45,504 nt of DNA from Bilabrum cf. latius (lineage: Eukaryota): the NCBI GenBank assembly GCA_965178125.1, contig OZ237765.1, positions 806,001 through 851,504 on the forward strand. Reading direction: 5' to 3'. Shown here piece by piece: positions 2,118 to 38,867 of this stretch. The position numbers were made by a program, and so were the translations under genes. Each line of letters begins with the position of its first letter. Within the stretch, counting starts at the first letter, position 1. The notes under the pieces are model-generated. The model made no database searches. It was not told the origin of the DNA and worked only from the letters and a program-made list of their open reading frames with translations.

Positions 2118-5100
2118 TTAATCCGCACTCTTCTACTTGGCCTTCCCACCACGCTTACCCCGGCGGCGTTTCTTCGGTGGGGCTGAAGATTCTTCTGCTG
2201 CAGTCGCCTTTGCCGCTTTCTAGTCGCTCGAGCCGCCGGCCCCGCCCGCAGTTGCCTCCTCTTCAACTCTGCCCCTCTTTGACCCAATCGCCGGATCGCT
2301 GCTCGGCAACGCATCGGCACTTGGGTCTTCTGCCTCTCCAACCCCTGGCTATTCCTCGCCTAGCTCAGCAAGCCCACCAAAGTACCCCACCAGCGATTTT
2401 CCACCGGATGGCATGTCGCTGCTCCCGCTGGCACCAGCACCAGCACCAGCACCGGCCCCCGAGGCAGCACCGGCAGCACCTGGGGCACCCCTGGGGCCTC
2501 CCTCGCTCCCACTCGTCACACCCTTTACCACACCCTTGCCCCCTTTGGCCAGCAGCCCGGCCAGCGCTGCCCTCCTGCCCGCAGCCCCCCCGCCCGCCCC
2601 CTCTGCAGCCAGCCTGGCCTGCCTGGCCGCCTCCATGGCCCGCCTCCAGCCCGCCCTATCCTCGCGGTAATGGTCCAGCCGGCACAGCCCCACGAGCCCC
2701 CGGGCCCACCTGCTCCCCCGCACCCTCCTCTCCTGCGCCTCGAGGTCTCCAGCGATCACCTCCAGGGTCCGCGCGTCGCATGCAGCGGCCAACCGCCGCG
2801 CCACCCGGCTGCCCCGCGGGCTGTCTGCCACCTCCACCCACCGCCCGCGCAGACCCCGCACCACGCGCTGCCTGGCCCAAGCCGACTCGGGCCCCAGTGC
2901 GGCCAGCGGCTCTATCACCCCCCGGGCACAGGCAGGGTCCTGCGCGGCTGCCACCAGAGCCTCTGGCCGCAGTGCAAGCACTGACTCTAGGACTGGTCGC
3001 GCCGCCGCTGGCTGCAGCCCAAGGGCAGCGCCTACAACCCTGCTGCCAGCCCTGGACAGCTGCACCGGGCGATCTGCCCTGCCCTTGGGAGGCAATGGGG
3101 CCTTGCCACCACTCGTCTCCTCCTTGCCCTTGTTCTCTCCAGCCTTCGCCTTGCTGTGCGCAAGCCCCACCTCTTTGGCCGCCTCCTCCTCGTCGTCGCT
3201 GATGCCGAGGCTGCCCCCACCATCACTATCTGCACCGTCATCCTCCTCCTCCTCCTCCTCCTCTCCGCCTAAAGCACCTCGGGCAGCCTCGCGCGCCTCC
3301 TCTGCTGCCCGGCCCCGGCCCCCGTCCACGTCTAGCAGCCACGCCACCAGACCCCTGGCCCCGCTCCTGCATCGAGCCAGAGCCGCGGCCCGCTGCAGAG
3401 CACCCACAACCGCTCGCTGCAGGTCGAGAGAGCCCCCTTCTGCTGTCGCGGCCACCAGCGCGGCCACCACGCCCTCCCGCCTGGCACCCAGCAGTGCGGA
3501 CGTGTGTGGCAGCAGGGAGCGGGCGCACTGCAGTGCCATGCCCGCCTCTGCGGCCCGCTCCACCGCTCGCTGGGCCGCATAGTTGGCTAGTGGATGGGCC
3601 GCAAGCGCCAAGAGGGCGGTGGGGAACAAAGATGACGAGGTCGACGATGATGCTGCCGATGATGATGATGCTGCCGATGACGATGATGCAGCTGCGCTCC
3701 CCGAAGCAGGCAGAAGTCCGGCTGTGTGCGTGTCTGCGGGTGGTAGGGAGCGGATGGAGGCTGCCAGTCGCAAGGGGCAGGGGTGTGGGAGCGGGGCCAG
3801 CAGCACGTCGTCTAGCAGCCGACGCATGCCCACCGCGGGCATTGCCTCGATCGCTGCTTCCGCCAGGGCTGATCCAGCTTTTGAGGTTGCGACGGCCGCC
3901 ACAGCCTCGAGCTGGCGCGCTCGGACTGATAGGATCGCAGCTGACGAGTCCCCATCCACCGCGCCGCTGGCCCCACGTCCTTCCTCTTCCTGGCCGCCAT
4001 CTCCCCCCGCTGCCTCCTCCGGCCCCTCATCTCCAGACAGCCCCAGCATGGCGTCACAGGCCCGCTGCAGGGCAGCTCGCATGGCCCCTGCGAGCTCCTC
4101 GCACTCACCCGCGGTTGCAACCACCCCTCCAAGCGTGTGTATCACACCGACGTCTCCATCCTTGCTTTGGCCATCACCCTCGCTACCCCGTCCCTCCCCA
4201 GACTCCGGCTTCAGAGCGTCAAGCACCCCTGCCAGCGCGTCGCCTTCGAGTCCGTCTGCAGCGGGTTCTTTGCTTCCACCGTCCTACGCATCCCGCTTGC
4301 CACCCCCCTCGCGCCTCTTCCCCGTGCCCCTGCTGGCGCGCGAACCGAGACCTGCAGCCGCAGCCCGTAACCTCCTCACACAGCGGGCCCCCGCCGCCAG
4401 CAGCGCCTGCGCCGCCCCCGATGCCGCGGGCTCCTCCGCCACCAGCAGCGCATCCCTCGGGGATGCGTTCCCCAGCGCCTCAAGCAGGCGACCCAGGGCA
4501 AAGACGAGGGAGCGGCGCAGGCACCAGTCGCCCTTCTCCGCGTGCCTCGCGCCTGAGGCAGCCGACGCCCTGCGAGTACCAGTGGAGGATCCCCCCGCCT
4601 GCCTGGCCCCCACGCCGTCCCCGGCCAGTGCCGCGGCAAGCACCCGCACCACGTGGGACGCGCCCTTCTCGAACATCCACTGCCGGAGCTCTGACTCCGC
4701 CACTGCCGCCACCCCGAGCAGACATCCCTCGATCCCCTCAAGCAGAGCAGTGGGAGGCAAAGAGGCACCTTCCATCTCCTCCTCCTCGTCTGCCGCCGAG
4801 TCCTCCTTTAGGTCCTGTGGGAGAGCACCGTCGGTTGCACCAGCGAATACTGGAACTCTCTTCCGGCCAGATAATGTCCTGTTCTGGTCCACCTCTCCCG
4901 ACGCAACACTCAGCGATGCTGACAGGCCACCCAGCAGCTCTTCGAGCACGTGGGAACCGTACCGATGCCTGGCCAAAAACGAGACATAGGGCGAAGCTCG
5001 AGCCGCGAACTGGAAGAGTTGTACAGATGATGATCGTTTCAAGAGAAGCTCAATCACCCCGCTCGCTCGCTTATGAGTAGCAAGTGATGCCCCCCTTTTT

Positions 5101-5213
5101 CTAATGTCCCGATGAAGATTCTCCACAAGCAACGAGCTGGAGTCATCCTCTCCACCGGTCTCTGCTTCCATATCTTCCTATGACTACTGCAAAGGCACTA
5201 TCAGCGATTTCAT
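2118..5213 (-). CDS. NOP9: Nucleolar protein 9 (Pumilio/PUF-repeat 18S rRNA processing factor), at least ~1030 aa with TAG read as sense
   Basis: PUF-like repeats are visible: SLATHKRASGVIELLL, LARHRYGSHVLEELL, WMFEKGASHVVRVL, LAAHPLANYAAQR, VADSPRGSRVARRL. In-frame TAGs are at 5184, 5178, 4284, 2349, 2220 and 2133. The protein ends in a basic tail (PPKKRRRGKRGGKAK*KSAD) at TAA 2118-2120. The frame is open upstream of ATG 5213 (KPKKPDEELVSYM), so the true start is probably further 5'. Confidence 0.8.
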
Positions 5214-5506
5214 ATACGAGACTAGCTCCTCATCTGGCTTTTTTGGCTTGCTGCGATAGAAGTCGGACGAACGGCAACTGATTCGATTGTCATGTATGTG
5301 GCTGGAAAATGTGCTAGGAAGCAAGCCATATTGCAGATCAGTATATATTGTATGTACGCACCGCTAATCTGGCAGCGGAACCGCCATAGGCTTCCGTAAT
5401 TATGTGCATCATGGTCGGGGTACTCGTCGGCCCAGGTTTGGGTATTGTTCCGGTTAAGCCAAATCTCAGTTTTCCCTTCCGTCGCTAATTTCCGACGGGC
5501 TCCACG

Positions 5507-7111
5507 ATGATTGCAAGTGAATCGCAACGAAAACGCTAGAATAATGCCATGACGAGTTGTATGAATGATCTGAATCGCCCTGGAATCACAATGCAGGTGT
5601 TTATATTTATTGTAATCGTTGGGTTCGAAGCCATCGAAGGAACGCGGCGGATTTATAGAGAGGAATCTTACATATTTGACTGGGATGCATACATGGAGCA
5701 AGCGTCTATGGTGGCTGCCGGTGAGCGAAACTATACTCGAGTGAGGGGCGACACTGGAGCTTTGGTATACCCCGGCGCGCACACGGGCTTGCATGTGCTA
5801 CTGAGATACGCATCGGGCTGGGATGAATAGCACTGGACTACGGAGTACGTACCAAAGAATATATCCGGGTATGAAGATAGGACGCATCGTCCCACCGACC
5901 TGCTTCAGTCTCTTCAGCTAGGCTACACGGCGCTGCTCGCATGCTCCACTGGGCTTGCGGTCGCCACGCATCTGCTTGCAGGAGTCCCCATTCACTTCAT
6001 CCTTATCATCGTTGTGTCTCGGCGATTCCAGGCTGTGCACTCGCTGGGCCTCTTCAACGACTGCTGGTGCGCCATGGGGATGCACGCAGCCGTGCTGCTC
6101 GCCCAGCTGGGCCACTGGCACTGGTCCGTAGCCGCGTGGTCGCTGGCCGTGGGCATCAAGATGAATGCGCTCCTTCTGCTCCCGGGATACGTAGCCCTCC
6201 TCGCATTCGTCGCCTGGCAGCGGAGGAGCAGGCAGCCGTCCAGGACCAAGGGGCACCAAACACAGGCCGCCTCCTCGACCTCCTCGATGTGTTCCCTTGG
6301 CCCTATCGGGGTATTTCTCCAGAGCCAATGGCCCAGCATAGATGTTCCCTGGCTGCTTGAGCTAGTGTCAATCGCAGCACTGGTGCAGGCGGCGGTGGGG
6401 GCTCCTTTTTTGCTGTCGGCCCCCAGTGCCTACCTCGGGGGGGCCTTCAACCTGGGGCGGGCCTTCTTCCGGAAATACTCGGTGAGCTGGAACTTCTTGC
6501 CCGAGCCTTGGTTCCAGAGCAAGACATGGCACGTGGTGCTGCTGGCTGCACACGTACTGGGCGTGATTGGCCTATTGGGCAGCAGGGGGTGTGCAAGGTC
6601 TCTGACCCCTGTGATTGCTAGCCGCCAACGGGACCCAGGGGCTCTGCAGCGGCATGCGGACTCTGGGTCCAGGAGCCGGATCGGGTCCAAGCCACAGTCC
6701 GGTGGTGCTCTGCAGTCAGAACGCAATGACGGCGGGGACCAGACGCAGTCTTGGAAGACCGGGTTCGCTCTGGCCAGGCCGGGGTCCAGGGCCTGGGTTG
6801 CTGTGGCTCTTTACGGTAGCAACCTGATTGGAGTAGCCATGGCCCGGTCGCTGCACTACCAGTTCATCGTGTGGTACTGGGCGGGTCTCCCAGTCCTCCT
6901 GTGGGCCGCATCGCTGCCCTGGCCCGCCGCGTTGGTGTGGGCGGTGGCCCTCGAGGTGGGGTGGAACTGCCACGAGCCCAAGCCGTGGAGCTCTGTGCTC
7001 GTGACGGTGCTCCATGTTGCCCTGTGCGCAGCGCTGCTTGGGACTCGGATGGACGGCATGCGGAAGGTGGCAGTGCCCCGGGCTGCCAGAAGGGGGCCAG
7101 AGAGGCCGTGA
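5507..7111 (+). CDS. ALG3: Dol-P-Man:Man5GlcNAc2-PP-Dol alpha-1,3-mannosyltransferase (ALG3 family), ~534 aa
   Basis: Family motifs: DWDAYMEQ, GERNYTRVRGDTGALVYPGAH, LFND, SLAVGIKMNALL, FNLGRAF..YSVSWNFLPE, RSLHYQFIVWY. ORFs 5549-5830 and 6014-7111 are one frame joined through TAG 5828. There is a further TAG at 5537 if ATG 5507 is the start. Stop is TGA. Confidence 0.9.
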
Positions 7112-10716: not shown

Positions 10717-13700
10717 TCATGGGGTAGGGTCAATGGTGGCCAGCAGGTGCGGCAGCCTCTCATGCAGCGTCTGCTGCACGCGCCAGAGCAGATCCGTGGC
10801 TCCGAACCTCGTCTCGGTGCATACCCCCAGCGCCTTGGCCAGCAGCTCCGCGGGGCCCTCCTGCCCGGGCTCGGACGCCCCAGTGGCGGACCGAAGGGCG
10901 CCGGCCTCGGACACCTGCAGCCCAGCCACGGCAGCCGACACGAGCGCTTCGGCAGCGGCCTTGTGCCCCTTTCTCGGCGTTACTGTGGGCGCCGTGTCGT
11001 GCACGCGCCCCAGGGCCAGCACGCCGCCCAGCACCCGCAGCACAGAGGCTGCCTCCTCCCTGAGAGCGCGCAGGGCCAGGGCAACCCGGCCCATGGCCGT
11101 GCCCTTGGCTTTCTCGTCGGCCGCAGCCGCCGCTGCTGTGGAGCTGGCCGTGGACCCACCGGCGGCGGCTCCATCGGCCGCCCCCGCTCCGCCCTTGCCT
11201 CGCTTGCCGCCCCGCTTGCGGCCACGCTTGCCCCCGGTCGCCTGCCCGGAGCCGCCTCCGCCCGTGATCACAGAGGCGCCCTGTGTCAGGGCCATGGCGG
11301 CATCTCCGCGGAACTTGAGCGCGGCCTGGGCGGGCGCCGACCTGGGCTCTGCCACAGCCAACAGCTCCTCGGGGAAGAGCCTCTCGATGGCGCTGGCGGC
11401 GATGGGCAGCAGCAGCAGCGTCTCGCCCACCAGCGGCGCCACCGATGCCAGGAACCCTGGGGCCACGGCGCCGGCAGCGGCGGACTTGGCAGCCACCTCT
11501 GCGGCGGCAGCAGGCTCGTCCTACAGATGGCCCGCCTCGGCCACTCGCCTGGCGGCAGCGAGCGCCCTGGGCACGGCCCCCGGCATGTGGTACTGCGCGC
11601 ACGTGGCGGCCACCGCGAGCCTGAGGGAAGCCTGCGCAGCCTTGAGCTTGGCCTCCGCCTGCGTCCAGTGCCCCTCGGCCGCCTTCGCCTTGTCCTCCCC
11701 GTCCTGCGCCTGGTCCCTGGCCTCGAGGGCCCTGAGCCTCTCCGAGTCCTCGCCCACCTCCTCGTCGTCGGGCTTGAGGCTCTCCAGGACGTTCTTGGCC
11801 GTGGCGCGGTCCGCCTCCTTCTGGGCCTTGGTCTTGGACAGCTTCTTGCCCTTCTTCTTGCCCTTGCCGCGCTTGCCCTTGCGCCCCTTCTTGCCGCTCG
11901 AGGCGCCCGGGTCGGCTGCCTCTGCCTCTGCCTCCGCGGCTCCTCCCTCGGCCGCCTCGCTGATGGCCACGCTCTCGGCGTAGTCCGCGGCCGCCTCCTC
12001 GGCAGAGGTGCCCTCCTCATCGATCACGATGGGCACTGCCTTCAGGGAGCCCTCGCAGCGGGCGGCCCGGCTGGCAGACAGTGCCGCGTCCACGGCGCGG
12101 AGGGATGCAGACCAGGCGGCCCAGGGGGCCTCCTTCCACGGCGCGTTGTCGCAGTCGTCCAGTGCGCACCTCTGGGCGGCACGGGGGTCGCGCAGGGGCT
12201 GCACGCCTGCCGGGGCCGCCTCCAGCAGCTCCGGCTGCACGCGTGCCTCCACCAGCGCGGGCTCGGTGGCCAGCAGCCTGAGGGCGGGCAGCCTGGAGCC
12301 CTCCTCGCCCTTGACCAGAGCGGCCGTGTGCGCCGCCACGGCCTCCTTGGCGGACCGCAGATCCACGTCCGCGGGCCTGTCCCCGGCGTGCATGCCCCGG
12401 GCGGCCAGCCTGACGGCTCCCGCGTCAGAGGCACCGGCGGCCAGCCCAGCATCGGCCCGGGCCACGATGGGCGTGTCCTCGCCCTCGCCCGCAGCCGCCT
12501 TCTGCTCCTCGCTGGGCAGCAGCCCGCACAGGCACAGCTGCTGCTTGAGCCGCATCAGCGCGTCGGCAGCGCCGCCCGGCCGCGCCGCCAGCAGCCGGTG
12601 CAGCAGCCTCAGCAGCAGGGTGCGCCTGCACACGCCGGCCACCGCCAGCCGCCTCTCGAGCCGCTGCCGCATGCCGATGGCAGACCCGGGGGCCGCCTCG
12701 TAAGACCCCGGCTGCAGCTGGCGGTCCGTCAGGTCAACGCTCTGCCGGAGCAGCGCCTCGGGGGGAGCTCCGAAGCCGAGCAGGTCGCGGCCCAGCCGCT
12801 CGCCCGTGCGTGCTGGGATGGTGGCGGACCGCACCGCCACACGGAGGTCCTCCAGCGGGGCCACGGGCAGCACGATGGCCGTCTGCGTGGAGTTGGCCTG
12901 GGCCAGCACCAGGGACCGAGCCATGCGCTCCCTGAGTCGGGCGAAGTGCACCACCTGGTGCAGCGTGTTGCGCAGCATCGCCACGCGCTGCACGGAGCCC
13001 AGCTGCGCCTGCTGCTGCTGGTTGCCCATGATCACCCGCTCCGCCAGTCCCTGCAGCTCGGAGTACGACCCCAGCCGTTCCAGGTCGGGGGCAAAGTGCG
13101 AGCTCACGCTCTCCCACTGCACGGACCGCACCCGGAGGTCATCCAGCACCCCGTGCGCCTCCTTGGCCGCACCCACCCAGGCAAGCAGCTTGGCACGCAG
13201 CAGCTGGGTGCGGTAGTCCGCGGTCCTGTCCTCCCTGGCCAGCTCGCACAGGGCAAGCGCCTCGAGGACGCAGTGCCGGGCCGCGGCCCTCGAGGCGGGG
13301 CTACCCTGCCCGCGCCTGACGTGCGCCTGGGCGGCATCAGCTAGGTAAGACGCCGCGATCACGGGCAGCTGGTCCGTGGGCAGGGTCGAGTCCCTGGCGC
13401 TCTGCTCCTGCGACTCGCGCACGATCCTGGCGAGCGCCTCAAGGGCGCGCTGCTTGCGGCGGGTCTCCTCGTCCCCTTGTCCCTGCACGTGCTTGAGCCG
13501 CTGCTGCCTCAGGCGCGCCGCCTTCTCCACGGCAGAGTGTGAGGCGGCCCCGGCCCTGCGCAGCTCGGCGGCAAGGCCACGGGTGACTCTGTACACAATG
13601 CCCGCCCGCCTGGCCTGATCCACCAGCGCCGCGGGGTCCTCAGGGTCGACGGTGCCCAGCACGCGCTGCGCCCGCATGGCCGACAAGAAGTGGCCGAGGC

Positions 13701-16700
13701 CAGCCCTTGCGCGAGCGATGGCCACCCTGTCCGCGGGCTTAGCAAAGTGCCTCCACCCGCGGGGCATGTCCGCGAGCCGTTGCGACTGCTCCTTCTGCCC
13801 GTCGGTGCCCTAGGAACCAGCACCGGCAGCACCGCCGCTCGCCCCTGCGCCCGAAGCCGCCTCCTTGCCCTCCTCCGCGCCCTCGCTCTTGCCCTGGGCC
13901 GCCTCGATCTCGGCCTCGGTCAAACCGGCGGCCTCCGCGGCCTGCGTCGCGGCGGCGTTCACGATGGTCTCGAGCGGCCGCAGCGGGGGCAGGCCCGAGT
14001 GCTTGGCGCCCATCTCCTCGGCGCACTCCCGGGGCACCGCCACGTCCATGTAGGGCTCCACCACGGCGCGAGCCAGCGCCGCCCGCGCTGCTTCCGAGGG
14101 CTGGAAGTGGGGCCGCTCCGACGGCTCCCCGTTGCGCAGGGGCATGGAGCCGTCCGCGATGGGCCGGCTGTTGCTGCCGTTCAGGTACACGAGGGGCAGC
14201 CCCGAGCTGCGGGTGACGGCTCCCTCGATCCACTGGGCCTGGATGGCCTCCTTGCAGCCGTCCTGCGGCTCCGTGGCAGAGAACGACTCGGCGTCCGCAT
14301 GCGCTGCAGCATAGCTCCGGGCGAAGGGCGCGAGGCTCTCCTCCACCTGCGACACGCTGGCCTGCTCGGAGCCGTGTCGGGCGACCCACTCGGCCAGCAG
14401 CCGCACCATGGTCGCGCTGGGGTCCTTGGCTGCAGCCAGTGCGTCTGCCTCCTTGGCTGCAGCGCGCCCTCCCGCCAGCACGAACGGTGCCGCGGCGGCG
14501 CCCTCCTTGCCCATGGCCTCGTCCACGCTCATCTCGGGGGCGGCCTCCCCCTTGGCCAGGCGGGCGTCCTCCGCCTCAGCCAGCTTGGCGTCCTCCTCGG
14601 CGGCGGCAGGGATGCCAGACACGGCAGCAGCTGCTTCCCCTGAGCCGGCCTTGCCGTCTGTGGCGTCCAGCAGCCTGCCTTCGAGGTACACGAGGCCTAG
14701 GAGCGCAGCCACGGCCCGCTGCCGCCTGCCCATAGAAGTCTGCTGCACCCTAGACCGGGGGTACACCCCGGTGGTGCTCGTGGGGTCGTCTGCATCCCGG
14801 ATGATCCAACGGAGGAATCCACGGATGGCACCCACAGACATCTCCTCAGGGGGCTGCGTGACGGTGCGAGGGCCCGTGTCCTCCTCCCCCTCCTCCTCGC
14901 CATCGCCCTCCTCCTTCTTGCTGGGCTCGTCGTCCTCGCCCTTGCTCTCTTCCGTCCCCTCCGTCTTCTTGTCCTCTCCTTCCTTCTCCCCTTCCTCCTT
15001 CTTCTTCTTGGGGGCCTTGGCCAGAGGAAGCAGCATCTCAGCCTCCTCCACCTCTAGATCCGTGCACACCGCCTCCACGGGCAGCACCAGCGGCTGTTGC
15101 ACGTCTTCCAGCCCGGGCGCGCTCGGCGGCTCCTCCTTCTGCACCCTCTTGAGGATGTCCGTGATGACCTGCTTGGCGCGCTCCAGTCGGGCGTCCTGCT
15201 CCTTCTTGGCTGCCTCCCGCTTGGCCTTCTTGGTCTCTTCGTCCTCCTCTTCTTCCTCCTCCTCCTTGCCCTTGCCGTCCTCACCGGCACCCGAAGCGGC
15301 GCCACCCTCTGCCTTGGCACCTCCTGCCTCTTCCTTCTTCTTGTCCTCTTCCTCCTTCTTGTCCTTCTCCTCCGCCTTGATGGCCTCCAGACCCGCCTGC
15401 ACCACAGGGTCGGTCACGTCCAGTTCGGCTTCCTCCTCCTCGCGGCCCTGCGTGCGCCGGAAGAGCGCCACAAGCCCCGAGTCCACCACGGCCCGGATGG
15501 CAGACCAGTCCATGTCGTCGGACAGCTGGGCCAGAGTGCGCCTCAGCTCCTAGTGCGCCTCCCTCCACCGACCCGCCTGTCCCAGCAGCTCTGCCATCTC
15601 CGCGCGCTCGTGGGACTGCTGCAGCACACGTCTGATCACATACTGCTGCACGGGCCGCACTGCCACCCTTTGCTTGCCCTTGCCCTCCCCCTCACCGCTC
15701 TCGCCCTCCTTGCCAGGCAGCAGCACAGGAACGTACCTCTGCTCGAGGGCCGCCCGGCGGTTGATGGGCCCGTTCAAGATGCGCAGGGCCTCCACGGGCC
15801 GCCTCGCCAGCTGCAAGGCATACAGCAGCAGGTGCACAGACTCTGGCTGCCTGTCCTCCAGCGGGTTGGCAAGCAGTGCAGAGGTCACGCGCTGCAGCAC
15901 GGCGGCTGCGCCCGCATCGCGGCGCTCGGCCGCCTTGGCCGCCCCTCGACTGGGCGCCGCTTCGCCCCCTGCAGCCGCCCCCGCCACTGCCTTGGCCTCT
16001 GCGGCGTCCCCAATGCGGGGGCACACCCCCACGGTCACCGGCGCCTCTGTGTCCATGAGGGCAGCCACGGCGGACCACTGCAGGAAACGGCGCGCCCCCA
16101 GCCGCTCCAGCTGCTTGGCGGTGATCTCGGCCCGGTCCTCAATGCTCATGCTGGACTCATCCTTGCCTCCAGCCGGGCCCGTCTCGCCAGTGGCACCCTC
16201 GCCCTCGGGGCCCTAGGCAGAAGCAGCATCCCCGCCCGCGCCCGCGCCAGTATCAGCGGCCTCGTCGGCCCGCTCCACCGCGGCGGCCTGTGCCTTGGCC
16301 CTGGCCGCCTCCTTGCTGCGCTCCTCGTCGAGGATGCGCGCCTTGCCCGCCTCTCGCAGGATGACGGGGGCCACGCGACTGAGGGTCGCGCTGGACTGCG
16401 GGCGGGGGACAGAGCAAGGGGCCGGGAGGGATCAACGAATCTGACGCAAGGATCTCAGAGATGCTGTTGCATTACTTGTTGTTGCTATGGGGTGCCGGGT
16501 AGCGGCGGTAGCCTGCATCTTACCTTGTTGAGAGCACCGTATTCGCCGTTCACCAGCTGGGCAACAGCGTGCTCTTGCAGGAACATGAGGCGGTCGACTT
16601 GGGATTTCTTCTCTTTCTTGGCACGGCTGGCAAGCGCATCCGCAAACGACCTCAGGATGCCGGCGTCGCCGACGAAGCGGCAAGCGTCGCCAGTGATCTC

Positions 16701-28895: not shown

Positions 28896-29550
28896 GCTAG
28901 GGACCTTCCCAACGCAAATAGAATTAAGTTGGTTATAGTAGTATTCCTCCAGTCGTCTGTCGGTAACTCTAGTAACGCTGCGATGCAGAAAAGTACCAAG
29001 GGATGAGTTTGGTGAGTCTGCGTTCAGATCGGTGTACCCCTTGCATGCACCCTGAAATGCACGGCTCGACAAACCACTTCGACTAGAATCGGAACGGCAA
29101 CGACTGCGAACTATGAGGCATTTCACTACTTAATTCGAGCCAGCCTCGCCTCTTCCATAAATCTGTGATGCAACTGAACGTCTCACCTGGTAACTTCTCC
29201 AAGCTGCACACCGGGCCATGTGCATTTATAAAATTCACCAAGCTAAAGCCTATGACCGGGACTGGAGCTAAACAAGGTGCCCATGTTACCTAGTACGCGG
29301 CACGAAGTCCAGGCGAGGGGCGCTGCAAGCCCTGCGACTCTCTGATCGATACACCACCACTACTGCGGGAGACACTCCCTGAATATCTGTTTTGTGACAC
29401 AAAACGATAAATGGGGGCCACCGCGAGGCCTGTAATCCACGATACAGGGCAAAATCTGGAACCCCATGTTTTTGCGACCTAAACGACATTTGGTTACAAC
29501 CGCTGTTCAGGTTCGTTGCGGCACCTCGCTGTTTGCAAATTAAGGCTAAT

Positions 29551-30327
29551 ATGGACAAGGAACTCGATGACTTATTGGCTGAACTTGGTAGTGTGACTTC
29601 AGACTCGCCGATTCCTGCTGGAATCACCAGACCGGACGAAAAGGCCCCGATGCCACCGTCCTTACCGCAAGCTCCTGCTGGCAAGTTTCAGTTAGCTCCC
29701 ACCAGCTCCTCCAGATCGGTGAGGGTCGATAGAGACGATGCAGGATATGGTACGGGTGCCTCTGCTGGAATGGTCGGTTCAGGTGTTGGCGTTTAGCCAC
29801 CATCGAAGGCCAAAGGAGGTGACGATGTGGACGGGCTGCTTGCCGAGCTTCGGGGTGTTGATACTGATATCCCGGAGCCTGCACCCTCCAAAGCATCATC
29901 AGGCTCATCGGGCTCAGATCTGCAAGCAGCAAGATCAAGTGCACCAGCTAGCATGCGAAGCAGACGCATCGAGCTCAGGGCAGACCGGGACACTGGCAAG
30001 CAGCTCCACTGCCTATCGTGTGATATGGGTGTAATCCGAATCAAAGATAGCAGATGGTCCCCTGCATCAGAATACATGCATTTTCGCGAGAATCACCCAG
30101 ACACTCGAAAGCTAGCTCAAGGAGGTATGTTGCTGCAAAGCGCTGGCTGGGCCGCGTTCTGCTGCTAGTGCTCATGGATCAGCTTAAGACCATAGAGCGA
30201 AGCTGCTTCTGCTGCATCCGGTCTTGTCGACGCGTCCGGGGTTCCGCACGAAGCTGAGTCTCCTGCTGTGCTTCGGTCAGCGACCGGTGCGTCCACCGCC
30301 CTGGGAACCAAGTTCAGGTGGGTGTAA
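29551..30327 (+). CDS. CFAP418: Cilia- and flagella-associated protein 418 (C8orf37 homolog), ~258 aa
   Basis: MDKELDDLLAEL N-terminus. LHCLSCDMGVIRIKDSRWSPASEYMHFRENHPDTRKL...AAFCC*CSW...FRWV matches the family pattern LRCxxCDFxV..W...DYLFFRNNxP...AYACQCSW...LRWV. TAGs at 29794, 30166 and 30193; stop TAA at 30325. Confidence 0.9.
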
Positions 30328-30412
30328 GGAGCTGTGAGAGGGCTGTTCATTGAAATCAAAAGTGTCGTTTATGGATCAGGTTCGCCAACATATCACACAA
30401 ACCCGTTGACCC

Positions 30413-31693
30413 TCACCCAGGTCCCCACTCCTTGTCCCTGCTCGCCCTCCCCGAGGACCGTCTCCTCCCACTGGCACTGCGACTGCCTCTCTCCTTCTTG
30501 CGGCCACTCGTCACAGCCTCTGCCTCCTTCTGCCATCGGATATTCCTGCGCCTCAGTCGCCGCGCCTCGGCCTCCATCCTCTCCAGAAACGTGGTGCCCT
30601 CCCACCGGGAGGAGAACCGTCCGTCGGGGTCTGGGTTCAGCACAGGCCTAAATGTGCACTCGGGGTCCAACTGCCCGCGCCCCGCCGCCAGCTCCCGCCT
30701 CCGCTCCCGCATGCCCTCTACCTGTTCCTCCAGCCGCCCCAGGAAATCCTCCCGCACGTCCTCCCACAGCATGCGCCCGCCCCCGGACACACGGGAGGAC
30801 CCGCCATCCAGCCCACCGCCCTTGCGGCCTACTGCTCCCCCCCCTGCTTCCTCCTCGCCATCACCCGGGCCCCCAACCCTCACCTCCACAAAGGACTTCG
30901 AGTCCCTGTCCCAAACCACCCGTCGCGGAGCAGTGGCCTCCCTCAGCAGCGCCTCTTTCTCCTCCCTCAGCCGCTGCTCTCGCCGCCTCTCAAAGGCGCG
31001 CTGCCGCTCGAAGAAATCAGAACTGGACTTGGCCCACGAGGCGGGCGTGGACGAGCCTGGGCCGCTGGGCCGTCCCGGGGCGCGGCTGGCCGCGCGTTGC
31101 TCCCTCTCCTGCTGGTCGCGGGCTTCCTCAAGGTTCCGCTCGCGGCGCCGCAGAAGCGCTTCCTGCCGCTTGAAGAAGTCCTCGCCCCCACCACTGCCGC
31201 CGCCCCCTGCTTTTGCACGCAGAGCAGCTCCCGAGCGTGGCAGCTAAGGGCGAAATGTGCACTGCATGCGGTCGCTGTCTTTTGAGAAAATCTCTTGTCG
31301 GGGGCCGCGCCTGCCTTTGGGATGCTCGGGGCCAAGCTCGTGCCGTACCGGCGTCGCCAGGCGCTCCCAGAACGCTAATGGTGCCGTGGATTTCTTCTTT
31401 TTGGCAGATCGCCGTGTTGGTGTTCGAGTTGCAGTAGCGCCTGCCCTGCCTGAGCGAGCAGATTGAGAGCCGGATGCTCTCGCAGCCTCTTTCCGCGCTT
31501 CATGACTTCGCTCCATAGCCTCTGCCATCCGCCTCTAACTTTTTCCTAATCTTGAATTCTATTTTGAAGGTTTCTAGTGTCTCCTTCCGCGATTTCTGGA
31601 TAACCGCATCGGCCGACGGGGCTCGTCGAAGTCTAGCATGCCAAGATCAGCTACGCCAAAGTAACGCTTGTCCGAGTTTCCGGTACTCTCCAT
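30413..31693 (-). CDS. Hypothetical charged/coiled-coil protein with two CTFRP motifs, ~426 aa
   Basis: ATG at 31693 (MESTGNSDKR). TAGs at 31574, 31559, 31535 and 31244. Repeated motifs QCTFRP*L / ECTFRPVL and DFFKRQ / DFFERQ / DFLGRL / TFLERM. Stop is TGA at 30413. Confidence 0.75.
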
Positions 31694-31883
31694 AACGAAT
31701 GCAACAGCACGGTGCAAGGGATTAAGTGGAGGTTTTGTGTGCCACCTAGCCACAGCACTCTCGCGCCTCCCGTCCGTTGAGCCGCTGGAAGTTCCGGTAA
31801 TGCTTGGCCGACGCGACCAACAGCAACAGGCCTGCAACAGGCCCCATTCCCTAGATGATACTTCCCAGCAAGCGACTCTTGCG

Positions 31884-33485
31884 ATGAAAAGCTAGCACAG
31901 TGCCAGGAGACGTGATTGCTGCGGTCATGGCCGAAGATTCCTGAGCGTTCGAACCGTATCGGCGGCCGTAGCGATCCTGGGTCTGCTGCTTTTTGTGGTA
32001 TTATTGTGGCTTGGATCATCGAGCAATGCCAGAGGAATTAAGCGACATAAAGAATTGAGAAGCGCTGACACGAGAGTGGATGGCTGGATATCACAGGCAT
32101 ACATTGCAGATGTTGCCGATCTGCAACGGCAGGCGGCTTGCTTGTCGCACGAATCGGTGATTCCAAGGAGAGACCCAGTTGAAGTGGTGGTTTCTGTTGT
32201 GGTAGGAGGTGATAAGTAGAGGTACTGGCAGGAAGCACTGGCGCTGATCACGTCGATCCTACTCCACACCCCCAGGTTTGGGTATGCAGGCGGCGTATTC
32301 ATGGGCGCTTCGGAAATCGAAAAGGCTACCCCAAATCCGGTACTGCTGCAAGTTACGATTGTGACTGATATCCATGGCGCATGCGGACCTGCTGTCACGT
32401 TGGCATCCACCGCCGAGTCGGTTGCGTCGCACCTAGGCTGGGATGACAGGGCTTCGTTCACAGTGCGATCAGCCGATCATTGGCTGCGACCTCCAACAGG
32501 AGGCGCGGGCATGAGCGGCCTGCGGGCCCAGTCTCGACCACCTAGTCCTTATGCTGGTAGTCTCCCCCCGCCCTCTGACGAGGGTGTCCTCCAGTGGCTG
32601 TCCTCCCTGTGGGCCATCCCGAACGCGCACTACAGCGGCCGATTCGCTGAGTTCAAGCTGCACATTCCGGCCATGCAGTGGGAGACGCAGCGTTCGGAAG
32701 CAGTGCCAGGTCGTTCTGAGACAAAGCTCCCACGACTGCACATTGTGCTGGACACCGACATTGTGCTGCTGCCCGGCCAGCGAGGGCTGCTGGGGCTGTG
32801 GCAGCACGTGGTGGCGGCCCGTTCAGCTCGCCACCCTGATCCGCCCCCCTGCGTGTGGGCTGCTCGCGAGCAAAGCGGGTTCTATCAGTCGGATGCCCCG
32901 GCGGGTGGGCAGGGAGGCACCTACCGCTGGCCGTACCCCGCACCCCGGGGCGTCAACTCGGGAGTGCTCGTGTTTGACGTGGACGAGTGCACGTGCGCGA
33001 GAGGCGCGGACTCGGGCAGGGCATGCTCGCCCACTTGGGAGGGCATGGCCCAGGCGCTGCAGGACCTCCACCGGGAGCACCCCTCGTGGGAGCTGCAGCT
33101 GGGGGACCAGGATGCGCTGAATGCGGTGGGCAGCAGGATGGAGACCCTCATCGGCGAGCTGCCGTGCGAGTCCAACCTGCAGGACGCGGGGATGCAGGAG
33201 GACGCGCTCCTGTGCACGCACTCGATGCGCACGGGGGGGGGGGATGGGCTGCGCAGGCCCGCTGCCTTGCACCACAACCTGCTGGCCAAGAGGCACGGGC
33301 TGTTCAGGGGCATGAGCGAGGCTTTGGCGCAGGCGGCGGTGGACTGGCAGGCTAGGAACGAGAGTGTCCGGTGCACCGATGGGCGGCTCATTCAAAAGCA
33401 AGGGTGGTTCGCGGGCGACGCTCCGCACGTGCAATTGAATCGATGGCTGCGGGATGCGATGAAGACGAACGGGTGTCCATGGTAA
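31884..33485 (+). CDS. Glycosyltransferase family 8 (GXYLT/LARGE xylosyltransferase-like), type II membrane protein, ~533 aa
   Basis: N-terminal anchor VSAAVAILGLLLFVVLLWLG. Motifs VVVSVVVGGDK*RYWQEALALITSILLH, IVLDTDIV (DxD), GVNSGVLVFD, LQLGDQDALN, LPCESNLQ and ALHHN. TAGs at 31893 and 32217; stop TAA at 33483. Confidence 0.85.
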
Positions 33486-33524
33486 CTCAACCAATTCAAC
33501 TGGTGCTGTTCCATCGCCATGCCT

Positions 33525-34785: not shown

Positions 34786-34931
34786 GGCAATATTACTTGC
34801 TATTAAGTGCCTCAACTGTGAACTGGTGTGCCACGTTCTTATCACAACAAAACAAAAACTTGCACTTGGTTCAACTCGGAGCTTGAGTTTTGGCCCTTGT
34901 CTTCCAGAGAAACCATGAGATCCGAAATGTC

Positions 34932-36383
34932 ATGAGCTTGATTCTTGTCGTTAAAATTGGTGGAGCCGCCATCACGGACAAGGCATCTGTCAAGACCTTG
35001 AGATCAGACCTTGAGACTATCGCGCGTTCGATCGCATTAGCATTCGGTAACCAATGCGAGCGTGGTCCCCACAGACTCGTTTTAACACATGGTGCAGGGT
35101 CATTCGGTCATCATGTAGCTACAGAGTATGGCTTTGGTTCGCTACCGGCGCCGTCAGACCCAAGAGCGTGCACGGAAGTTCGTAGCGATGTGCTTGAGTT
35201 GACTGGTCATGTCACCACAGCCTTGCGAAAGCTCAGAGTTCCTGCCACAGTGTTATCACCACACAGCATGGGGTGGGTGGCGGCGGGCCCACTTGAGTGC
35301 GGCCCACCTTTCAACCTATCAGGCACTACAACGCGGGTTGTCGCCGATGCAATCGTACGGCAGACAGTTCCTGTGATTCCTGGCGATGTGGTTCCCATCA
35401 AAGGGGCACTGGGATGGGCAATCATGGGAGGTGATCCCATTGCCGAAGTGCTAAGCTTAAATCTGCCACGGGATCTGTCGGAAGCGTCGGCTGCACTAGT
35501 GACCGATCATCGAGGGCCCCCGTGCACTGGCAGCACAGCTTCTGAAAAGAGCGCTCATGACTCTTGTAGGGGTGTTCATGTTGTCCATATCACTGGCGTG
35601 CCCGGCCTGTACACGAACGACCCGTCCGAGAGTGATGCGAGGCTCGTGCGGATCGTGGCTGTGGGTGGGCAGAGAGGAGGAGACATGACTGAGGCTGCGG
35701 CGACCGATCGCGCTCGTTCATCTGCAATGGACATTGCTGACTTAAGTAGCGTGCTGAAGCGTAGTCACGGCCTCCCGGAGCATGCAGTCGTCGAGGTGAG
35801 GCCCACACCTGGAGTGGCGTGGTGGGCCGTAGAGGACAGGGCCGCGGATGACTCGGGTTGCAGACCAGTTGGAGCATCTTCCGCTTCCAAGGCAGGCACG
35901 CCGGACCAGGTGTATGGCGTGGCTCCATTCATAGCTGCTGCTGGTCCTGCTGCGCCAGCGACCAATGGGAGCCACATGCACAGGGAAATTCCCTCTGTGA
36001 AGCCAATGGTGGGCGCGGCGGGGGCTGATCCCCCGCCAGGCGCATCAGCAACCACTACCGGTGATTCGGGCGCTCAACCCCAGACCGATGCATCGAAAGA
36101 AGCAATACCGGTAGCCGACGTGACCGGCGGCATCGGGGAGAAGGTGGCTAGTATCCTGCGGTCGGTGCGCGCAGGCCCGGACGCTGACCACTAGCAACGT
36201 ACGACTGCGACCATCGCAGGGGCAGCGGGGAGCGAGGTCGTGCTGCTTCGAGCCACAGCCAAGTAGAATCGCATGCCACTGGCTACAGACCTGGCAGAGT
36301 GGTGGGGGCTGCCAGGGACTCACTTCGTATCAGTGGAGGAGTTCGCCAGTAGGGCGCAAGGTGCCAGTGTGCAAGAAACATGA
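34932..36383 (+). CDS. IPK: Isopentenyl phosphate kinase (amino-acid-kinase superfamily), ~483 aa
   Basis: Motifs VVKIGGAAITDK, LTHGAGSFGHHVA (IPK signature His), VPVIPGDVV, IMGGDPI, GVPGLYTNDP and DVTGGIGEKV. The C-terminal W..PGTHF strand lies beyond TAGs 36192 and 36264. Stop is TGA at 36381. Confidence 0.85.
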
Positions 36384-36606
36384 TGTGAAGTTCATACACA
36401 AGTGCAAGATGCAAGAAAAGCGACATTCTTGCTTACTGGTGCCACGGCACTAGCAGTGCTGCGGGTGCCATAAGGGAGCTTGTACAATGACCCACACGTC
36501 GTGACGTCCACCTAGGGCGAATCATGACGGCTTCAAGTTGGGCCATCGCGCAAGAGTGTCAAGACAGTCGCCAAGAGATTCCAGTTAGTTATAGTCCATG
36601 CGTCAT

Positions 36607-38508
36607 TCACTGTCCCTCATCTGCCTCATCTTCCTCTTCCTCTTCTTCTTCCTCCTCTTCACCCTCCGGGATGGCAGACCCGGCCGCCGCTGCCACCGCC
36701 GCCAGCTCCTATTGCGCCTGCTCGTGCCCCAGCTTGGCCCCGCTGAACTCGGACTGCTGCCCCTCCACGCCCGCGCCTCCCCTGGCCTTGCCCGCCCCCT
36801 TGCGCAGCCGCTGCTGGAAGAGCGGCGACCTCTCCACTAGCGGGGCCACCAGCGCCAGGAAGGACTGCATCACCTGCTCGTCCTCCGTTGTGAAGGACCG
36901 CCCGTCGCTGCTGCCGCCGGAACCTGAGCCCAGCGCGCCAGCAGCCCCCGCCGCAGATCCAGGCCCCCCGGTGGGTCCCTGCACCTTGTTGATCAGCTGC
37001 ATCACGCCCACCAGCGTGCTGCTTGCTGGCGACACGACGGGCATCGTGAGCAACGCCCGAGTGCGATACCCCGTCTTGCGATCCACGTCCAGCCCGCTCC
37101 ACCTTTCGTCCGTGTACACGTCATCGATACGCACGGGCTTGCCCGACTGCGCCGCCAGCCCCGCGATCCCCTTATCGATGGGCACCCTCAGATCCACGTC
37201 TCCCTGCACCGCCCACAGCTCCCCATGCTCGTGGTCCGCCAGATAGAAGGTGCACCTGTCCGCGCCCACCAGCAAGGGGGCCTTGGAGGAGAGCTGGAAC
37301 ATGAGCGAGGGGGCGCCCAGGTCAGGGGCCTGAAGGGCACGCACCACGTCCAGCATGGCTTGGGCGCGGCGCTCCGAGGCCTGGGCCCGCGCGTGCACCT
37401 GCGCATTCCTGAGGGCTACTCCCGCCTGCTGGGCCAGCACCTGCAGGGCCTGCACGTCGCTCGACCCGAAGGTCCCGTCCCACACCCCGTCCGGCCTGTT
37501 CCCCCCGCGGCGGTTGACCGCCTGCAGCACGCCCACCACTTCCTCGTCGGCATCCAGCACGGGCAAGGCCACCACTGCTCGGGTGTGGAAGCCCATCTTC
37601 TCATCTGTCGCGCTGTCGAAGCGAGGGTCTTGCCGAGCGTCGGGAATGACGAGAGCCTCGCCCGAAGCCGCAACGGCACCCGCGATCCCGCTGCCCCACT
37701 TGAGCCGAGGAGCAGACTCGCCAGCGGAACTACTACCACCGGAAGTAGCTGCGGCAGCTGATCCAGCGGCTTGGGGTGCCGCAGTGCCCTACACCATCAC
37801 GAGCTCCCTGGTCTCGGTGGCACCCTAGCTCTGGCCCTCGTGCGAGGCACCCACGCCCTGTCTCTGCCTGTCCACTGCCAGCCAAACTGTCGCACGCTCG
37901 CAGTGCAGCAGCGCGCATGCCTCTGCAATTATGACTCTCACAGCCGCGTTCGGGTCCAGCTCGGCCGCAATCCTCCTTGAGCTGTCCAGCACGCGCTGCA
38001 GCAACGCTGCGCGGTCCTGCCCGGCCGCATGTGCGCCAGTCTCGCCAATTTCAGTACCTAACTTGATTGATTGTCCCTATGTTGCCTACCCCGATGACAC
38101 TGCCTGCATTGTTTGCTCAAACAGAGCGTCCGGCTCAGTCACGCGGAAGCCGGAGCCGGCTGGTCGGCCACTTACGGCCTTTGCTGCCAGGTCCCGGACA
38201 AATGCAATGGGATCATCTGGCTCAGCAGCTAGCACCTGAGAAACAAGAAAGTGAATGAAAGTTACCCCAGATGCGAGCGTTGCGACACGGGGGTGCAACA
38301 TTGCGTGAGCTTGCCGACGAATCGAAAGACACTTGAGACATACGGCGATCGTAGGGGCAAAGTCGAGAGAATTGAGTCCCAAATTTCACACAATGCCACA
38401 TGTTATGCTTAGTGTCCTCCTCACTTCAGCCGTCAGCCACTCGCAGACCCGTTTGAACCCAGTGCGCTCAAGTACAGCAGCCGAAGCTGGCCGTGTGGCA
38501 CTAGCCAT
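36607..38508 (-). CDS. RIIa/Dpy-30-like dimerization-docking domain plus two tandem GAF domains and an acidic tail, ~570 aa; exons 38508-38425, 38235-36607
   Basis: Spliced N-terminus KRVCEWLTAE|VLAAEPDDPIAFVRDL. GAF-A: LLHCERATVWL, GIAGAVAASGE, DPRFDSATDEKMGFHTRAVVALP, VGVLQAVN. GAF-B: GADRCTFYL, KGIAGLAAQSGK, DRKTGYRTRALLTMP, QLINK, FTTEDE. TAGs at 38086, 38077, 37825, 37789 and 36709; stop TGA at 36607. Confidence 0.85.
38236..38424 (-). other. Spliceosomal intron, 189 nt, phase 0
   Basis: GAA|GTGAGG ... TTTCTTGTTTCTCAG|GTG; splicing reconstitutes the D/D motif. Confidence 0.8.
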
Positions 38509-38867
38509 GAGTGTACAATAGCAAACTAGATCGCAAGGTGTCCAGCAGCCGGCCGACCAATGCGCACTACGGCACGCCAAGAAGGATAATTTGTATCAGC
38601 CGAGATCCTGAACCGAAGTATTGCAGATCAACAGTTGGAAAGCATTCGTTACAATGAATGGCCACGCCGGATCCCCTTCGTTCGAGCACTTAATGTCCAG
38701 CCAGGGTTTAATCTATATCACCTATAAAGATAGAGATATCATGCTATTCTGTTAGCCCGGTGATTTCCCGCGATTTTCCTCACGACAGCACCAGATGTTA
38801 CAGATGACGCTGCCCTGGCCATGGCCGCCGCCGCGCAGCCACCTCGCCTCACCGCAAACGCAACCTC

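What the first reader, a model, noticed from the sequence alone, without database searches (positions are those of the whole stretch)
30148..30177. Best decoding site: CFAP418 motif reads C-C-[TAG]-C-S-W where homologs have A-C-Q-C-S-W
Seen: TTC TGC TGC TAG TGC TCA TGG at 30157-30177, followed in frame by the family's terminal RWV motif. Established: C8orf37/CFAP418 proteins carry a conserved AYACQCSW motif. TAG therefore occupies a conserved Gln between two conserved Cys, which argues against Trp, Leu, Tyr, Glu or pyrrolysine.
Basis: partly seen in the sequence, partly recalled or inferred. Interest (0 to 1): 0.85.

Follow-up and report, generated by a model that had tools for sequence, protein, structure and literature searches.

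The report
TAG codon read as glutamine
A stop codon (TAG) sits inside a conserved motif of a flagellar-protein gene exactly where relatives have glutamine, and together with neighbouring genes and a related species it shows that this GC-rich eukaryote reads TAG as glutamine while TAA and TGA still end genes.

Summary
TTC TGC TGC TAG TGC TCA TGG lies at 30157-30177. It is codons 203-209 of an intronless CFAP418/C8orf37 gene (29551-30327, +; Pfam RMP, E 1.5e-18), which has three in-frame TAGs and ends in TAA.

At the column of TAG codon 206, 145 of 150 homologous stretches have Gln. Both flanking Cys are 150 of 150.

TAG is a general sense codon here. Six homology-backed genes hold 22 in-frame TAGs and no in-frame TAA or TGA, and they end in TAA or TGA.

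Independent support for Gln:
- At NatB TAG codon 1543, a 98%-identical strain has Q and a 74%-identical relative has CAA.
- In that relative's syntenic contig (L001), 11 of 19 aligned in-frame TAGs face window Gln codons, and 10 of 13 do so in well-aligned context. Gln beats every other residue by 30 log-likelihood units.

The code pattern (UAG=Gln, UAA/UGA=stop) is already known from Iotanema and a few ciliates. This lineage looks different and was not found in print, so I rate it a new member of a known kind.

No tRNA, eRF1 or peptide evidence was available.

The parts
29551..30327 (+). Intronless CFAP418/C8orf37-family gene (Pfam RMP): 258 codons plus a TAA stop, with three in-frame TAGs
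   Evidence: P0002 aligns over residues 2-258. No joint lies inside the gene.
30148..30177 (+). Codons 200-209, W-A-A-F-C-C-[TAG]-C-S-W, the family's AY[C/A]CQCSW motif
30166..30168 (+). TAG codon 206, read as Gln, between invariant Cys205 and Cys207
   Evidence: Column is Q in 145 of 150. It sits in a turn between strands 194-204 and 209-212 of the confident core of the model.
29794..29796 (+). TAG codon 82, in a variable linker. A 78%-identical relative's predicted protein (P0003, 78 aa) ends just before this position.
30193..30195 (+). TAG codon 215, in a variable column
30325..30327 (+). TAA terminator. It coincides with the C-terminus of the closest homologue, P0002.
30010..30021 (+). Cys154-x-x-Cys157, the first pair of the four near-invariant Cys of the domain
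   Evidence: C 149 of 150 at each position; coordinates
11521..11523 (-). TAG codon 1543 of the NatB auxiliary-subunit gene (10717-16149, -). It faces Q in a 98%-identical strain and CAA in a 74%-identical relative.
10717..16149 (-). NatB (MDM20/Naa25-like) gene: 3 in-frame TAGs, TGA stop. Syntenic with L001.
5507..7111 (+). ALG3 gene: TAG codon 108 lies inside the homology-supported part, TGA stop
2118..5387 (-). NOP9-like PUF gene: 7 in-frame TAGs in the ORF, TAA stop
34932..36383 (+). Isopentenyl phosphate kinase-like gene: 2 in-frame TAGs, TGA stop
36607..38301 (-). Tandem-GAF protein gene: 5 in-frame TAGs, two of them inside the first GAF domain, TGA stop

Best explanation
The window is nuclear DNA of a GC-rich (about 62%), intron-poor, flagellated eukaryote. 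Its nuclear code reads UAG as glutamine, while UAA and UGA still terminate (the pattern of NCBI table 15). The TAG at 30166-30168 is codon 206 of a CFAP418/C8orf37 (Pfam RMP) gene. It is translated as the near-invariant Gln between two invariant Cys of the C-x-C knuckle. Translation then continues through a third TAG to the conserved C-terminus and stops at TAA.

Shown here: TAG lies in frame inside homology-supported coding sequence of several genes. It occupies Gln positions. TAA and TGA are the terminators. A related species shares the usage.

Inferred from established knowledge, not shown: decoding is by a cognate tRNA-Gln with anticodon CUA, which pairs with UAG but not UAA, together with an eRF1 that no longer releases at UAG.
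For: (1) Gene and frame. Pfam RMP scores 67.9 bits (cut-off 27) over residues 137-218. P0002 aligns over 2-258 across all three TAGs, with CCQCSW and a terminal RWV.

(2) The column. Q in 145 of 150 stretches, with Cys 150 of 150 on both sides. The result is unchanged with X in the query.

(3) General sense use. There are 22 in-frame TAGs, 0 TAA and 0 TGA in 4738 codons of six homology-backed genes. The two other frames hold 20 TAA and 136 TGA. The terminators are 2 TAA and 4 TGA. At least 10 of the 22 TAGs lie inside or between homology-supported segments.

(4) The window's NatB TAG codon 1543. P0205 (98% identical over 439 aa) has Q there, and P0206/L001 (74%) has CAA.

(5) The relative L001 (9134 nt, syntenic with window 6017-14887). 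Its NatB frame carries 11 in-frame TAGs and ends in TGA. Of 19 aligned relative-TAG sites in four genes, the window has CAG at 10 and CAA at 1. At sites with at least 7 of 12 flanking residues identical and no gap, 10 of 13 are Gln codons. A likelihood built from the same alignments puts Gln 30 log units above the next residue over all 28 sites.

(6) No special context. The base after the TAG is G in 11, A and C in 5 each (uncertain by one between them) and T in 2 of 22 (read).

(7) Other data sets. Contigs from two further studies carry the TAG with 0 other letters. Two contigs (X7 record 17, 29556-30342; X5 record 3, 30039-30353) bridge it and run past the TAA. The same runs show GT..AG-type joints elsewhere in the stretch, as RNA would. 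The tool only guesses that these runs are RNA.
Against: The window's own TAGs are mostly uninformative or do not show Gln. Against L001, only 1 of 9 aligned window-TAG sites faces Gln (the others: S 2, R 2, I, E, Y, D). With those 9 sites alone the likelihood slightly prefers His (0.92) over Gln (0.06). All but one of these sites have 6 or fewer of 12 identical flanking residues.

CFAP418 codons 82 and 215 and the TAGs of ALG3, GAF, IPK and NOP9 lie in variable stretches.

So for this organism itself, Gln rests on two strong sites plus the assumption that it shares its relative's code.

The absence of in-frame TAA/TGA is partly by construction, because the ORFs were delimited by those codons.

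No tRNA(CUA), eRF1 or peptide evidence exists: there is no tRNA gene in the window or in L001/L002, and no genome is held.

The RNA nature of runs X5, X7 and X8 is a guess by the tool, and X5 is marked 'probably DNA'.
Confidence: 0.9

Rival explanations
1. TAG is a sense codon but codes for another amino acid (Glu, Leu, Ser, Tyr, Lys, Trp, His or pyrrolysine), as in other UAG reassignments.
For: 8 of the 9 window-TAG sites aligned to L001 face non-Gln residues. On those 9 sites alone His scores best. UAG=Leu, Ser and Glu codes exist in other eukaryotes (PMC11687900, passages read).
Against: At CFAP418 codon 206 none of E, L, S, Y, W or H occurs in 150 stretches, and K occurs twice. NatB codon 1543 is Q in two relatives. 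In the relative, 11 of 19 TAGs face window Gln codons, and Gln is 30 log units ahead overall. The non-Gln partners sit in poorly aligned stretches.
Confidence: 0.03
2. TAG keeps its stop meaning and is passed only by context-dependent or partial readthrough (near-cognate tRNA-Gln), or it has a dual sense/stop meaning depending on position in the mRNA.
For: None of the tools could measure termination efficiency. Only about ten genes were examined, so rare TAG terminators cannot be excluded. The window's TAGs avoid conserved positions more than the relative's do, as a poorly decoded codon might.
Against: There are 22 in-frame TAGs in six genes, 2 to 7 per gene, with no shared downstream context. 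Three successive readthroughs would be needed to make the conserved C-terminus of CFAP418. None of the six genes, nor the four in L001, ends at TAG.
Confidence: 0.05
3. The TAGs are removed or changed before translation (an intron, or U-to-C editing of UAG to CAG), or they are errors or pseudogene lesions.
For: U-to-C editing would give Gln at exactly these sites. The runs laid are only guessed to be RNA.
Against: The motif is contiguous around the TAG, so an intron is excluded. Contigs of four runs from three studies show 0 other letters and no joint inside the gene. Lesions would not be TAG only (0 TAA/TGA in frame), and they would not be shared as a pattern by a 74%-identical species.
Confidence: 0.02

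Closest known systems
Nuclear code UAG=Gln with UAA and UGA as stops (NCBI table 15 pattern) in the fornicate Iotanema spirale (PMC5304391; abstract and passages read)
   Same: Same codon meanings: UAG is glutamine, and UAA (with UGA) is kept as a terminator. It was likewise inferred from conserved columns of homologues.
   Different: Iotanema is an anaerobic endobiotic metamonad known from a transcriptome. Here the evidence is genomic DNA of about 62% GC with (TTAGGG)n repeats, relatives occur in environmental metagenome contigs, and the nearest named ALG3 is from the stramenopile Cafeteria. No Iotanema sequence was at hand, so identity with it was not tested.
UAG-only reassignment to Gln in phyllopharyngean ciliates (twice) and Protocruzia tuzeti (PMC11687900; passages read)
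   Same: UAG=Gln while UAA and UGA stay stops. Most genes carry in-frame UAG.
   Different: Those are ciliates with 27-54% GC. This window has 52-74% GC per 2 kb, long multi-gene DNA with genes on both strands, and introns of about 100-200 nt.
UAR=Gln codes (table 6 type: many ciliates, hexamitid diplomonads, ulvophyte algae, Streblomastix, Amoeboaphelidium; listed in PMC11687900)
   Same: A stop codon captured for glutamine, one transition away from CAG.
   Different: Here UAA is a working terminator. CFAP418 and NOP9 end in TAA, and for CFAP418 this is at the homologue's own C-terminus. There is no in-frame TAA in 4738 codons.
UAG=Leu (rhizarian exLh, some ciliates) and UAG=Ser (Scotinosphaera) (PMC11687900 and PMC5304391 passages)
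   Same: UAG is uncoupled from UAA.
   Different: The residue differs. Leu and Ser never occur at the CFAP418 column, and both fall about 30 or more log units behind Gln.
CFAP418 / C8orf37 family (Pfam PF14996 RMP, 'Retinal Maintenance')
   Same: Full domain match, with all invariant residues present (C154, C157, W169, R179, P183, C205, C207, W209, W257).
   Different: One family-conserved residue (Gln206) is written with TAG. The protein ends right after R-W-V, whereas most homologues continue for 3-12 residues.

Membership tests
Pfam PF14996 RMP (C8orf37/CFAP418) | Profile match above the curated gathering score | tested here: met
   67.9 bits against a cut-off of 27, E 1.5e-18, profile positions 62-141 of 154. 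476 library proteins match at E<=1e-3.
Pfam PF14996 RMP (C8orf37/CFAP418) | Four conserved Cys (C-x-x-C ... C-x-C) and the AY[C/A]CQCSW motif | tested here: met
   C154 and C157 are each 149 of 150. C205 and C207 are each 150 of 150. Q206 is 145 of 150 and W209 is 146 of 149. The window has all of them if TAG is read as Q.
Pfam PF14996 RMP (C8orf37/CFAP418) | Conserved C-terminal R-W | tested here: met
   W257 is 59 of 59 and R256 is 34 of 59 in alignment A2. It is in frame only if TAG codons 206 and 215 are read through.
Pfam PF14996 RMP (C8orf37/CFAP418) | Ciliary or flagellar localisation and function | not testable with these tools
   Recalled from the literature on C8orf37/CFAP418. No call bears on it.
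UAG=Gln, UAA/UGA=stop nuclear code (table 15 pattern) | In-frame TAG inside homology-supported coding sequence of many genes | tested here: met
   22 TAGs in six genes. At least 10 lie inside or between homologous segments. The relative L001 has 20 TAGs in four ORFs.
UAG=Gln, UAA/UGA=stop nuclear code (table 15 pattern) | TAG positions correspond to Gln in homologues | tested here: met
   CFAP418 codon 206: Q in 145 of 150. NatB codon 1543: Q in 2 of 2 relatives. Relative's TAGs facing window Gln codons: 11 of 19, or 10 of 13 under the strict filter. Gln leads by 30 log-likelihood units. Against this: window TAGs facing L001 are Q in 1 of 9, in poor context.
UAG=Gln, UAA/UGA=stop nuclear code (table 15 pattern) | TAA and TGA terminate and are absent in frame | tested here: met
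   Terminators are 2 TAA and 4 TGA in the window, and 1 TAA and 3 TGA in L001. The ends coincide with the homologues' ends for CFAP418 and NatB. 0 in frame against 156 in the other two frames, though this is partly by construction.
UAG=Gln, UAA/UGA=stop nuclear code (table 15 pattern) | TAG never serves as a terminator | tested here: inconclusive
   None of the roughly ten genes examined ends at TAG. The ORFs were defined with TAG as sense, and no 3'-end data were available.
UAG=Gln, UAA/UGA=stop nuclear code (table 15 pattern) | A tRNA-Gln with anticodon CUA, and an eRF1 altered in stop-codon recognition | not testable with these tools
   No genome is held. No tRNA gene lies in the window, L001 or L002. 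No Rfam match.
UAG=Gln, UAA/UGA=stop nuclear code (table 15 pattern) | Peptide-level proof of Gln at UAG | not testable with these tools
   No proteomic data were available.

The most novel reading that the evidence does not exclude
This is an independent, so far unreported origin of the UAG-only-to-Gln code in a clade of GC-rich, intron-poor flagellates. The clade has at least two species-level members plus a 98%-identical strain in public data, and its nearest named ALG3 is from the bicosoecid Cafeteria. It would be the first case outside ciliates and metamonads, and in a genome where codon capture by AT pressure cannot be invoked. Such organisms would also be natural candidates for the unknown hosts of the giant viruses that read TAG as Gln, noted elsewhere in this scan.
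Probability: 0.3. Interest if true: 0.75.

Novelty: new member of a known kind. Interest (0 to 1): 0.6.

Why it matters
Nuclear codes in which UAG and UAA have different meanings are rare. The passages read list one fornicate, one rhizarian, one green alga and a few ciliate lineages. Another lineage would add a data point on how UAG escapes eRF1 while UAA does not. This one is GC-rich, so TAG would have been a common terminator before the change.

There is also a practical point. Public protein collections already hold this clade's genes as fragments cut at TAG: P0003 is 78 aa of 258, P0205 is 439 aa of 1810, and P0206 is 564 aa of an ORF of at least 1443 codons. Annotation with the standard code therefore truncates most of its proteome.

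The CFAP418 site is a clean single-residue anchor for proteomic confirmation.

Tried and rejected
- Whole genome: none is held.
- tRNA and RNA genes: none in the window, L001 or L002 (ARAGORN). No Rfam match at gathering score.
- Homologue search with P0001: timed out. The search for shorter fragments over residues 120-258 found nothing.
- Metagenome scan with P0001: 321 pattern matches, none confirmed.
- PDB by sequence: no relative of the CFAP418 protein; the best hit is a glucanase at E 0.34.
- Fold search of the model (mean pLDDT 64.5; core residues 151-210 at 85-93): Foldseek against PDB gave no match at E<=0.001. Cereblon and Mis18-yippee chains appear among rows at E>2, which is a lead only. 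VIA-align wide gave one row, Z 2.3.
- Other window TAG sites as decoding evidence: those of ALG3, GAF, IPK and NOP9 fall in unaligned or variable stretches. CFAP418 codons 82 and 215 are variable columns.
- Sequencing runs: no RNA holder is listed. The first attempt got no answer from the machine.
It was not pursued.
- Earlier notes of this scan: none for this genome or sequence.
- Literature: searches for a stramenopile, bicosoecid or heterotrophic-flagellate nuclear UAG reassignment listed no such report by title or abstract start (13 papers hold the terms, 12 listed; 0; 0; 6, all on other lineages). Supplements were not seen.
- Ideas considered and rejected: a trypanosomatid origin, because genes alternate strands, and a ciliate origin, because of GC content.
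- Long ORFs antisense to real genes (for example 13676-16444 + opposite NatB, and 33562-34659 + opposite the Rad60-SLD gene) had no Pfam match. I treat them as products of high GC.

Full report
**The observation.** The letters TTC TGC TGC TAG TGC TCA TGG stand at 30157-30177, and the TAG is at 30166-30168. They are codons 203-209 of an ORF that starts at ATG 29551 and ends at TAA 30325-30327. Read with TAG as a residue, the ORF gives a 258-residue protein with two further in-frame TAGs, at codon 82 (29794-29796) and codon 215 (30193-30195). Under the standard code the ORF falls into pieces of 87, 113 and fewer residues.

**What the gene is.** The product matches Pfam PF14996 RMP ('Retinal Maintenance', the C8orf37/CFAP418 family) at 67.9 bits against a cut-off of 27, over residues 137-218. 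A full-library HMMER search found 476 proteins at E<=1e-3. The best hit, P0002 (240 aa, 47% identity), aligns from residue 2 to 258. It carries WAAYCCQCSWISIRP where the window has WAAFCC[TAG]CSWISLRP, and it ends in the same ...RWV. Homology therefore continues in one frame on both sides of all three TAGs, which excludes an intron or an end of the protein at the TAG. A second hit, P0003 (78 aa, 78% identity to residues 1-81), stops exactly before codon 82, as a standard-code gene call in a close relative with a stop at that place would.

**The column.** I realigned the 150 best stretches (149 proteins) to the query. The TAG column is Q in 145, K in 2, and G, M and N in 1 each. The Cys before and after it are each 150 of 150, and W209 is 146 of 149. 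Putting X at the three TAGs in the query changes nothing. One caveat: the library search itself was run with Q at these places. A single residue could only marginally influence which 150 of the 476 hits were listed. The family motif is AY[C/A]CQCSW. Codons 82 and 215 fall in variable columns and say nothing. In an AlphaFold model built on 60 sequences the core residues 151-210 have block pLDDT of 85-93. Codon 206 sits in the turn between strands 194-204 and 209-212, so it is inside the folded domain. Together with C154-x-x-C157, the two Cys around it look like a four-Cys metal site. That is an inference and was not tested.

**TAG is a sense codon throughout the window.** Six genes are backed by homology:
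- NOP9-like, 2118-5387, minus strand
- ALG3, 5507-7111, plus strand
- NatB auxiliary subunit, 10717-16149, minus strand
- CFAP418, 29551-30327, plus strand
- isopentenyl phosphate kinase-like, 34932-36383, plus strand
- tandem GAF, 36607-38301, minus strand

. In their 4738 codons there are 22 in-frame TAGs and no TAA or TGA. The two other frames hold 54 TAG, 20 TAA and 136 TGA. The terminators are TAA twice and TGA four times. The zero is partly by construction, since I delimited the ORFs by TAA and TGA. However, the ends of CFAP418 and NatB coincide with the ends of their homologues, and at least 10 of the TAGs lie inside or between homologous segments. No common context follows the TAGs.

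Most window TAGs lie in unconserved stretches. A search for shorter relatives of NatB gave three fragments.
- P0205 (98% identical over 439 aa) has Q where the window has TAG codon 1543 (11521-11523).
- P0206 (74% identical) also has Q there.
- P0206 led to a 9134-nt metagenome contig, L001 (58% GC). It is syntenic with window 6017-14887.

In L001 the NatB frame is open for 1443 codons only if its 11 TAGs are read through, and it ends in TGA. P0206 is merely the piece after the last TAG.

I compared four shared ORFs codon by codon: NatB (77% identity), the EME1-like ORF at 8611-10500 (57%), ALG3 (58%) and the ORF at 7284-8612 (44%). The results were:
- At 19 aligned TAGs of the relative, the window has CAG 10, CAA 1, CGC 2, and GGC, GAG, AGC, GCG, CCG and ATC once each. 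One more TAG faces a gap.
- Where at least 7 of 12 flanking residues are identical and there is no gap, 10 of 13 are Gln codons.
- Ordinary Gln codons are conserved at a rate of 0.51 in the same alignments, and the background frequency of Gln is 0.037.
- A likelihood built from these alignments puts Gln 30 log units above the next residue for all 28 sites.

**Results that do not fit so well.** Of the window's own 9 TAG sites aligned to L001, only one (NatB 1543, CAA) faces Gln. The others face S, S, R, R, I, E, Y and D, and one further window TAG faces a gap. On these 9 sites alone His scores best (0.92, against 0.06 for Gln). All but one of these sites have 6 or fewer of 12 identical neighbours, and four are in the fast-evolving ORF at 7284-8612, so I read them as uninformative rather than contrary. 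Still, for this organism itself Gln rests on two strong sites plus a shared code with its relative. The window also uses TAG less than the relative does. In NatB, TAG is 3 of 85 Gln-type codons in the window against 11 of 63 in the relative. The window uses it less at conserved places too, so TAG may be a disfavoured codon here.

**Other data sets.** The 3-kb stretch around the gene is held by runs of four studies, one of which may be the source. I laid contigs from four runs of the other three studies on 28900-38400. The listed pieces show 0 other letters. Two of them bridge the TAG and run past the TAA: X7 record 17 (29556-30342) and X5 record 3 (30039-30353). X6 record 11 (30157-30347) contains the TAG, but with only 9 letters to its left. 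The pieces of X5, X7 and X8 are gene-sized. These runs also show two joints with CT..AC ends, which are GT..AG on the minus strand: 28977>29187 in X5, and 34642>34746 in X5, X7 and X8. This is what spliced RNA would give. The tool itself only guesses 'RNA?' and marks X5 'probably DNA'. If these runs are RNA, the message neither ends at nor edits the TAG. In any case the TAG is not an assembly error.

**Lineage and what is known.** No rRNA or tRNA is in the window. The best named relative of ALG3 is Cafeteria roenbergensis (E 8e-72, 35-39% identity). The next named hits are plants, at E about 1e-41. This is a weak pointer to a bicosoecid-like stramenopile, not a placement. The passages I read of PMC11687900 and PMC5304391 list UAG-only-to-Gln codes in Iotanema spirale, Protocruzia tuzeti and two phyllopharyngean ciliate lineages (GC 27-54%). 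They also list UAG=Leu in a rhizarian and some ciliates, and UAG=Ser in Scotinosphaera. 'Genetic code 15' as the name for TAG=Gln comes from the abstract of PMC9523058 in the listing. Four searches for such a code in stramenopiles, bicosoecids or heterotrophic flagellates listed none by title or abstract start. Supplements were closed. I could not test whether the window is Iotanema itself. The kind of code is therefore known, and the lineage probably is not.

**Mechanism.** The points shown are the ones above. The rest is inferred. A tRNA-Gln with anticodon CUA reads UAG but not UAA; the background section of PMC5304391 cites the Tetrahymena experiment for this. An eRF1 has lost UAG recognition. 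The codons arise from CAG by single C-to-T transitions, as the CAG/TAG pairs between the two species show.

**Rivals.**
- Another residue: 0.03.
- Leaky or dual-meaning TAG: 0.05.
- Editing, intron, error or pseudogene: 0.02.

**Earlier notes of this scan.** describes giant viruses of eukaryotes that read TAG as Gln and whose hosts are unknown. A cellular clade with this code is a candidate kind of host. I did not test this.

Noticed in passing
window 39007-39564, 39625-41435, 41470-44009: An internal array of 93 TTAGGG units (98% matches) is followed by a 155-bp satellite (11.7 copies) and a 22-bp satellite (115 copies). This is a telomere-type repeat inside the window: a subtelomere, an interstitial telomere or an assembly join. 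The long 'ORFs' at 38821-39666 and 41368-44118 are just these repeats read in frame.
   Followed up: partly
window 28978-29186 and 34643-34745 (minus strand): Two joints with CT..AC ends appear in contigs of other runs, which is GT..AG on the minus strand. The second is seen in three runs. It interrupts, near its 5' end, a minus-strand gene (exon 2 at 33525-34640) with a C-terminal Rad60-SLD ubiquitin-like domain (Pfam E 1.1e-5), one in-frame TAG and a TGA stop.
   Followed up: partly
L001 1-4329 against window 10717-14887: The 74-77%-identical relative uses TAG far more than the window. In NatB it has 11 TAG against 39 CAG and 13 CAA, whereas the window has 3 TAG against 78 CAG and 4 CAA. Its TAGs sit at conserved Gln positions, while the window's TAGs sit mostly in variable stretches. 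TAG may be under different selective pressure in the two species.
   Followed up: partly
public protein collections (P0003, P0205, P0206, P0154): Genes of this clade are present in public protein sets only as fragments cut at TAG or started after one. Examples are a 78-aa piece of CFAP418, 439-aa and 564-aa pieces of NatB, and an ALG3 that lacks its N-terminal third.
   Followed up: partly
window 8611-10500 (+), 31800-33485 (+), 30413-31693 (-), 16883-20551 (+), 21197-23227 (+), 44276-45490 (-): These are long TAG-containing ORFs without a Pfam match above cut-off. The first has a weak EME1/MUS81 C-terminal hit (E 0.012, below cut-off) and is conserved in L001 at 57% identity. 30413-31693 carries a repeated C-T-F-R-P motif. 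21197-23227 is an acidic tandem-repeat protein.
   Followed up: partly
CFAP418 model, residues 150-215: The RMP core folds confidently, but neither Foldseek nor VIA-align found a solved structure resembling it. Four-Cys beta-tent domains (cereblon CULT, Mis18 yippee) recur among the non-significant Foldseek rows.
   Followed up: partly
earlier notes of the scan (other genomes): Several giant viruses of eukaryotes were noted to read TAG as Gln with TAA and TGA as stops, with unknown hosts. The cellular clade seen here has the same code.
   Followed up: no
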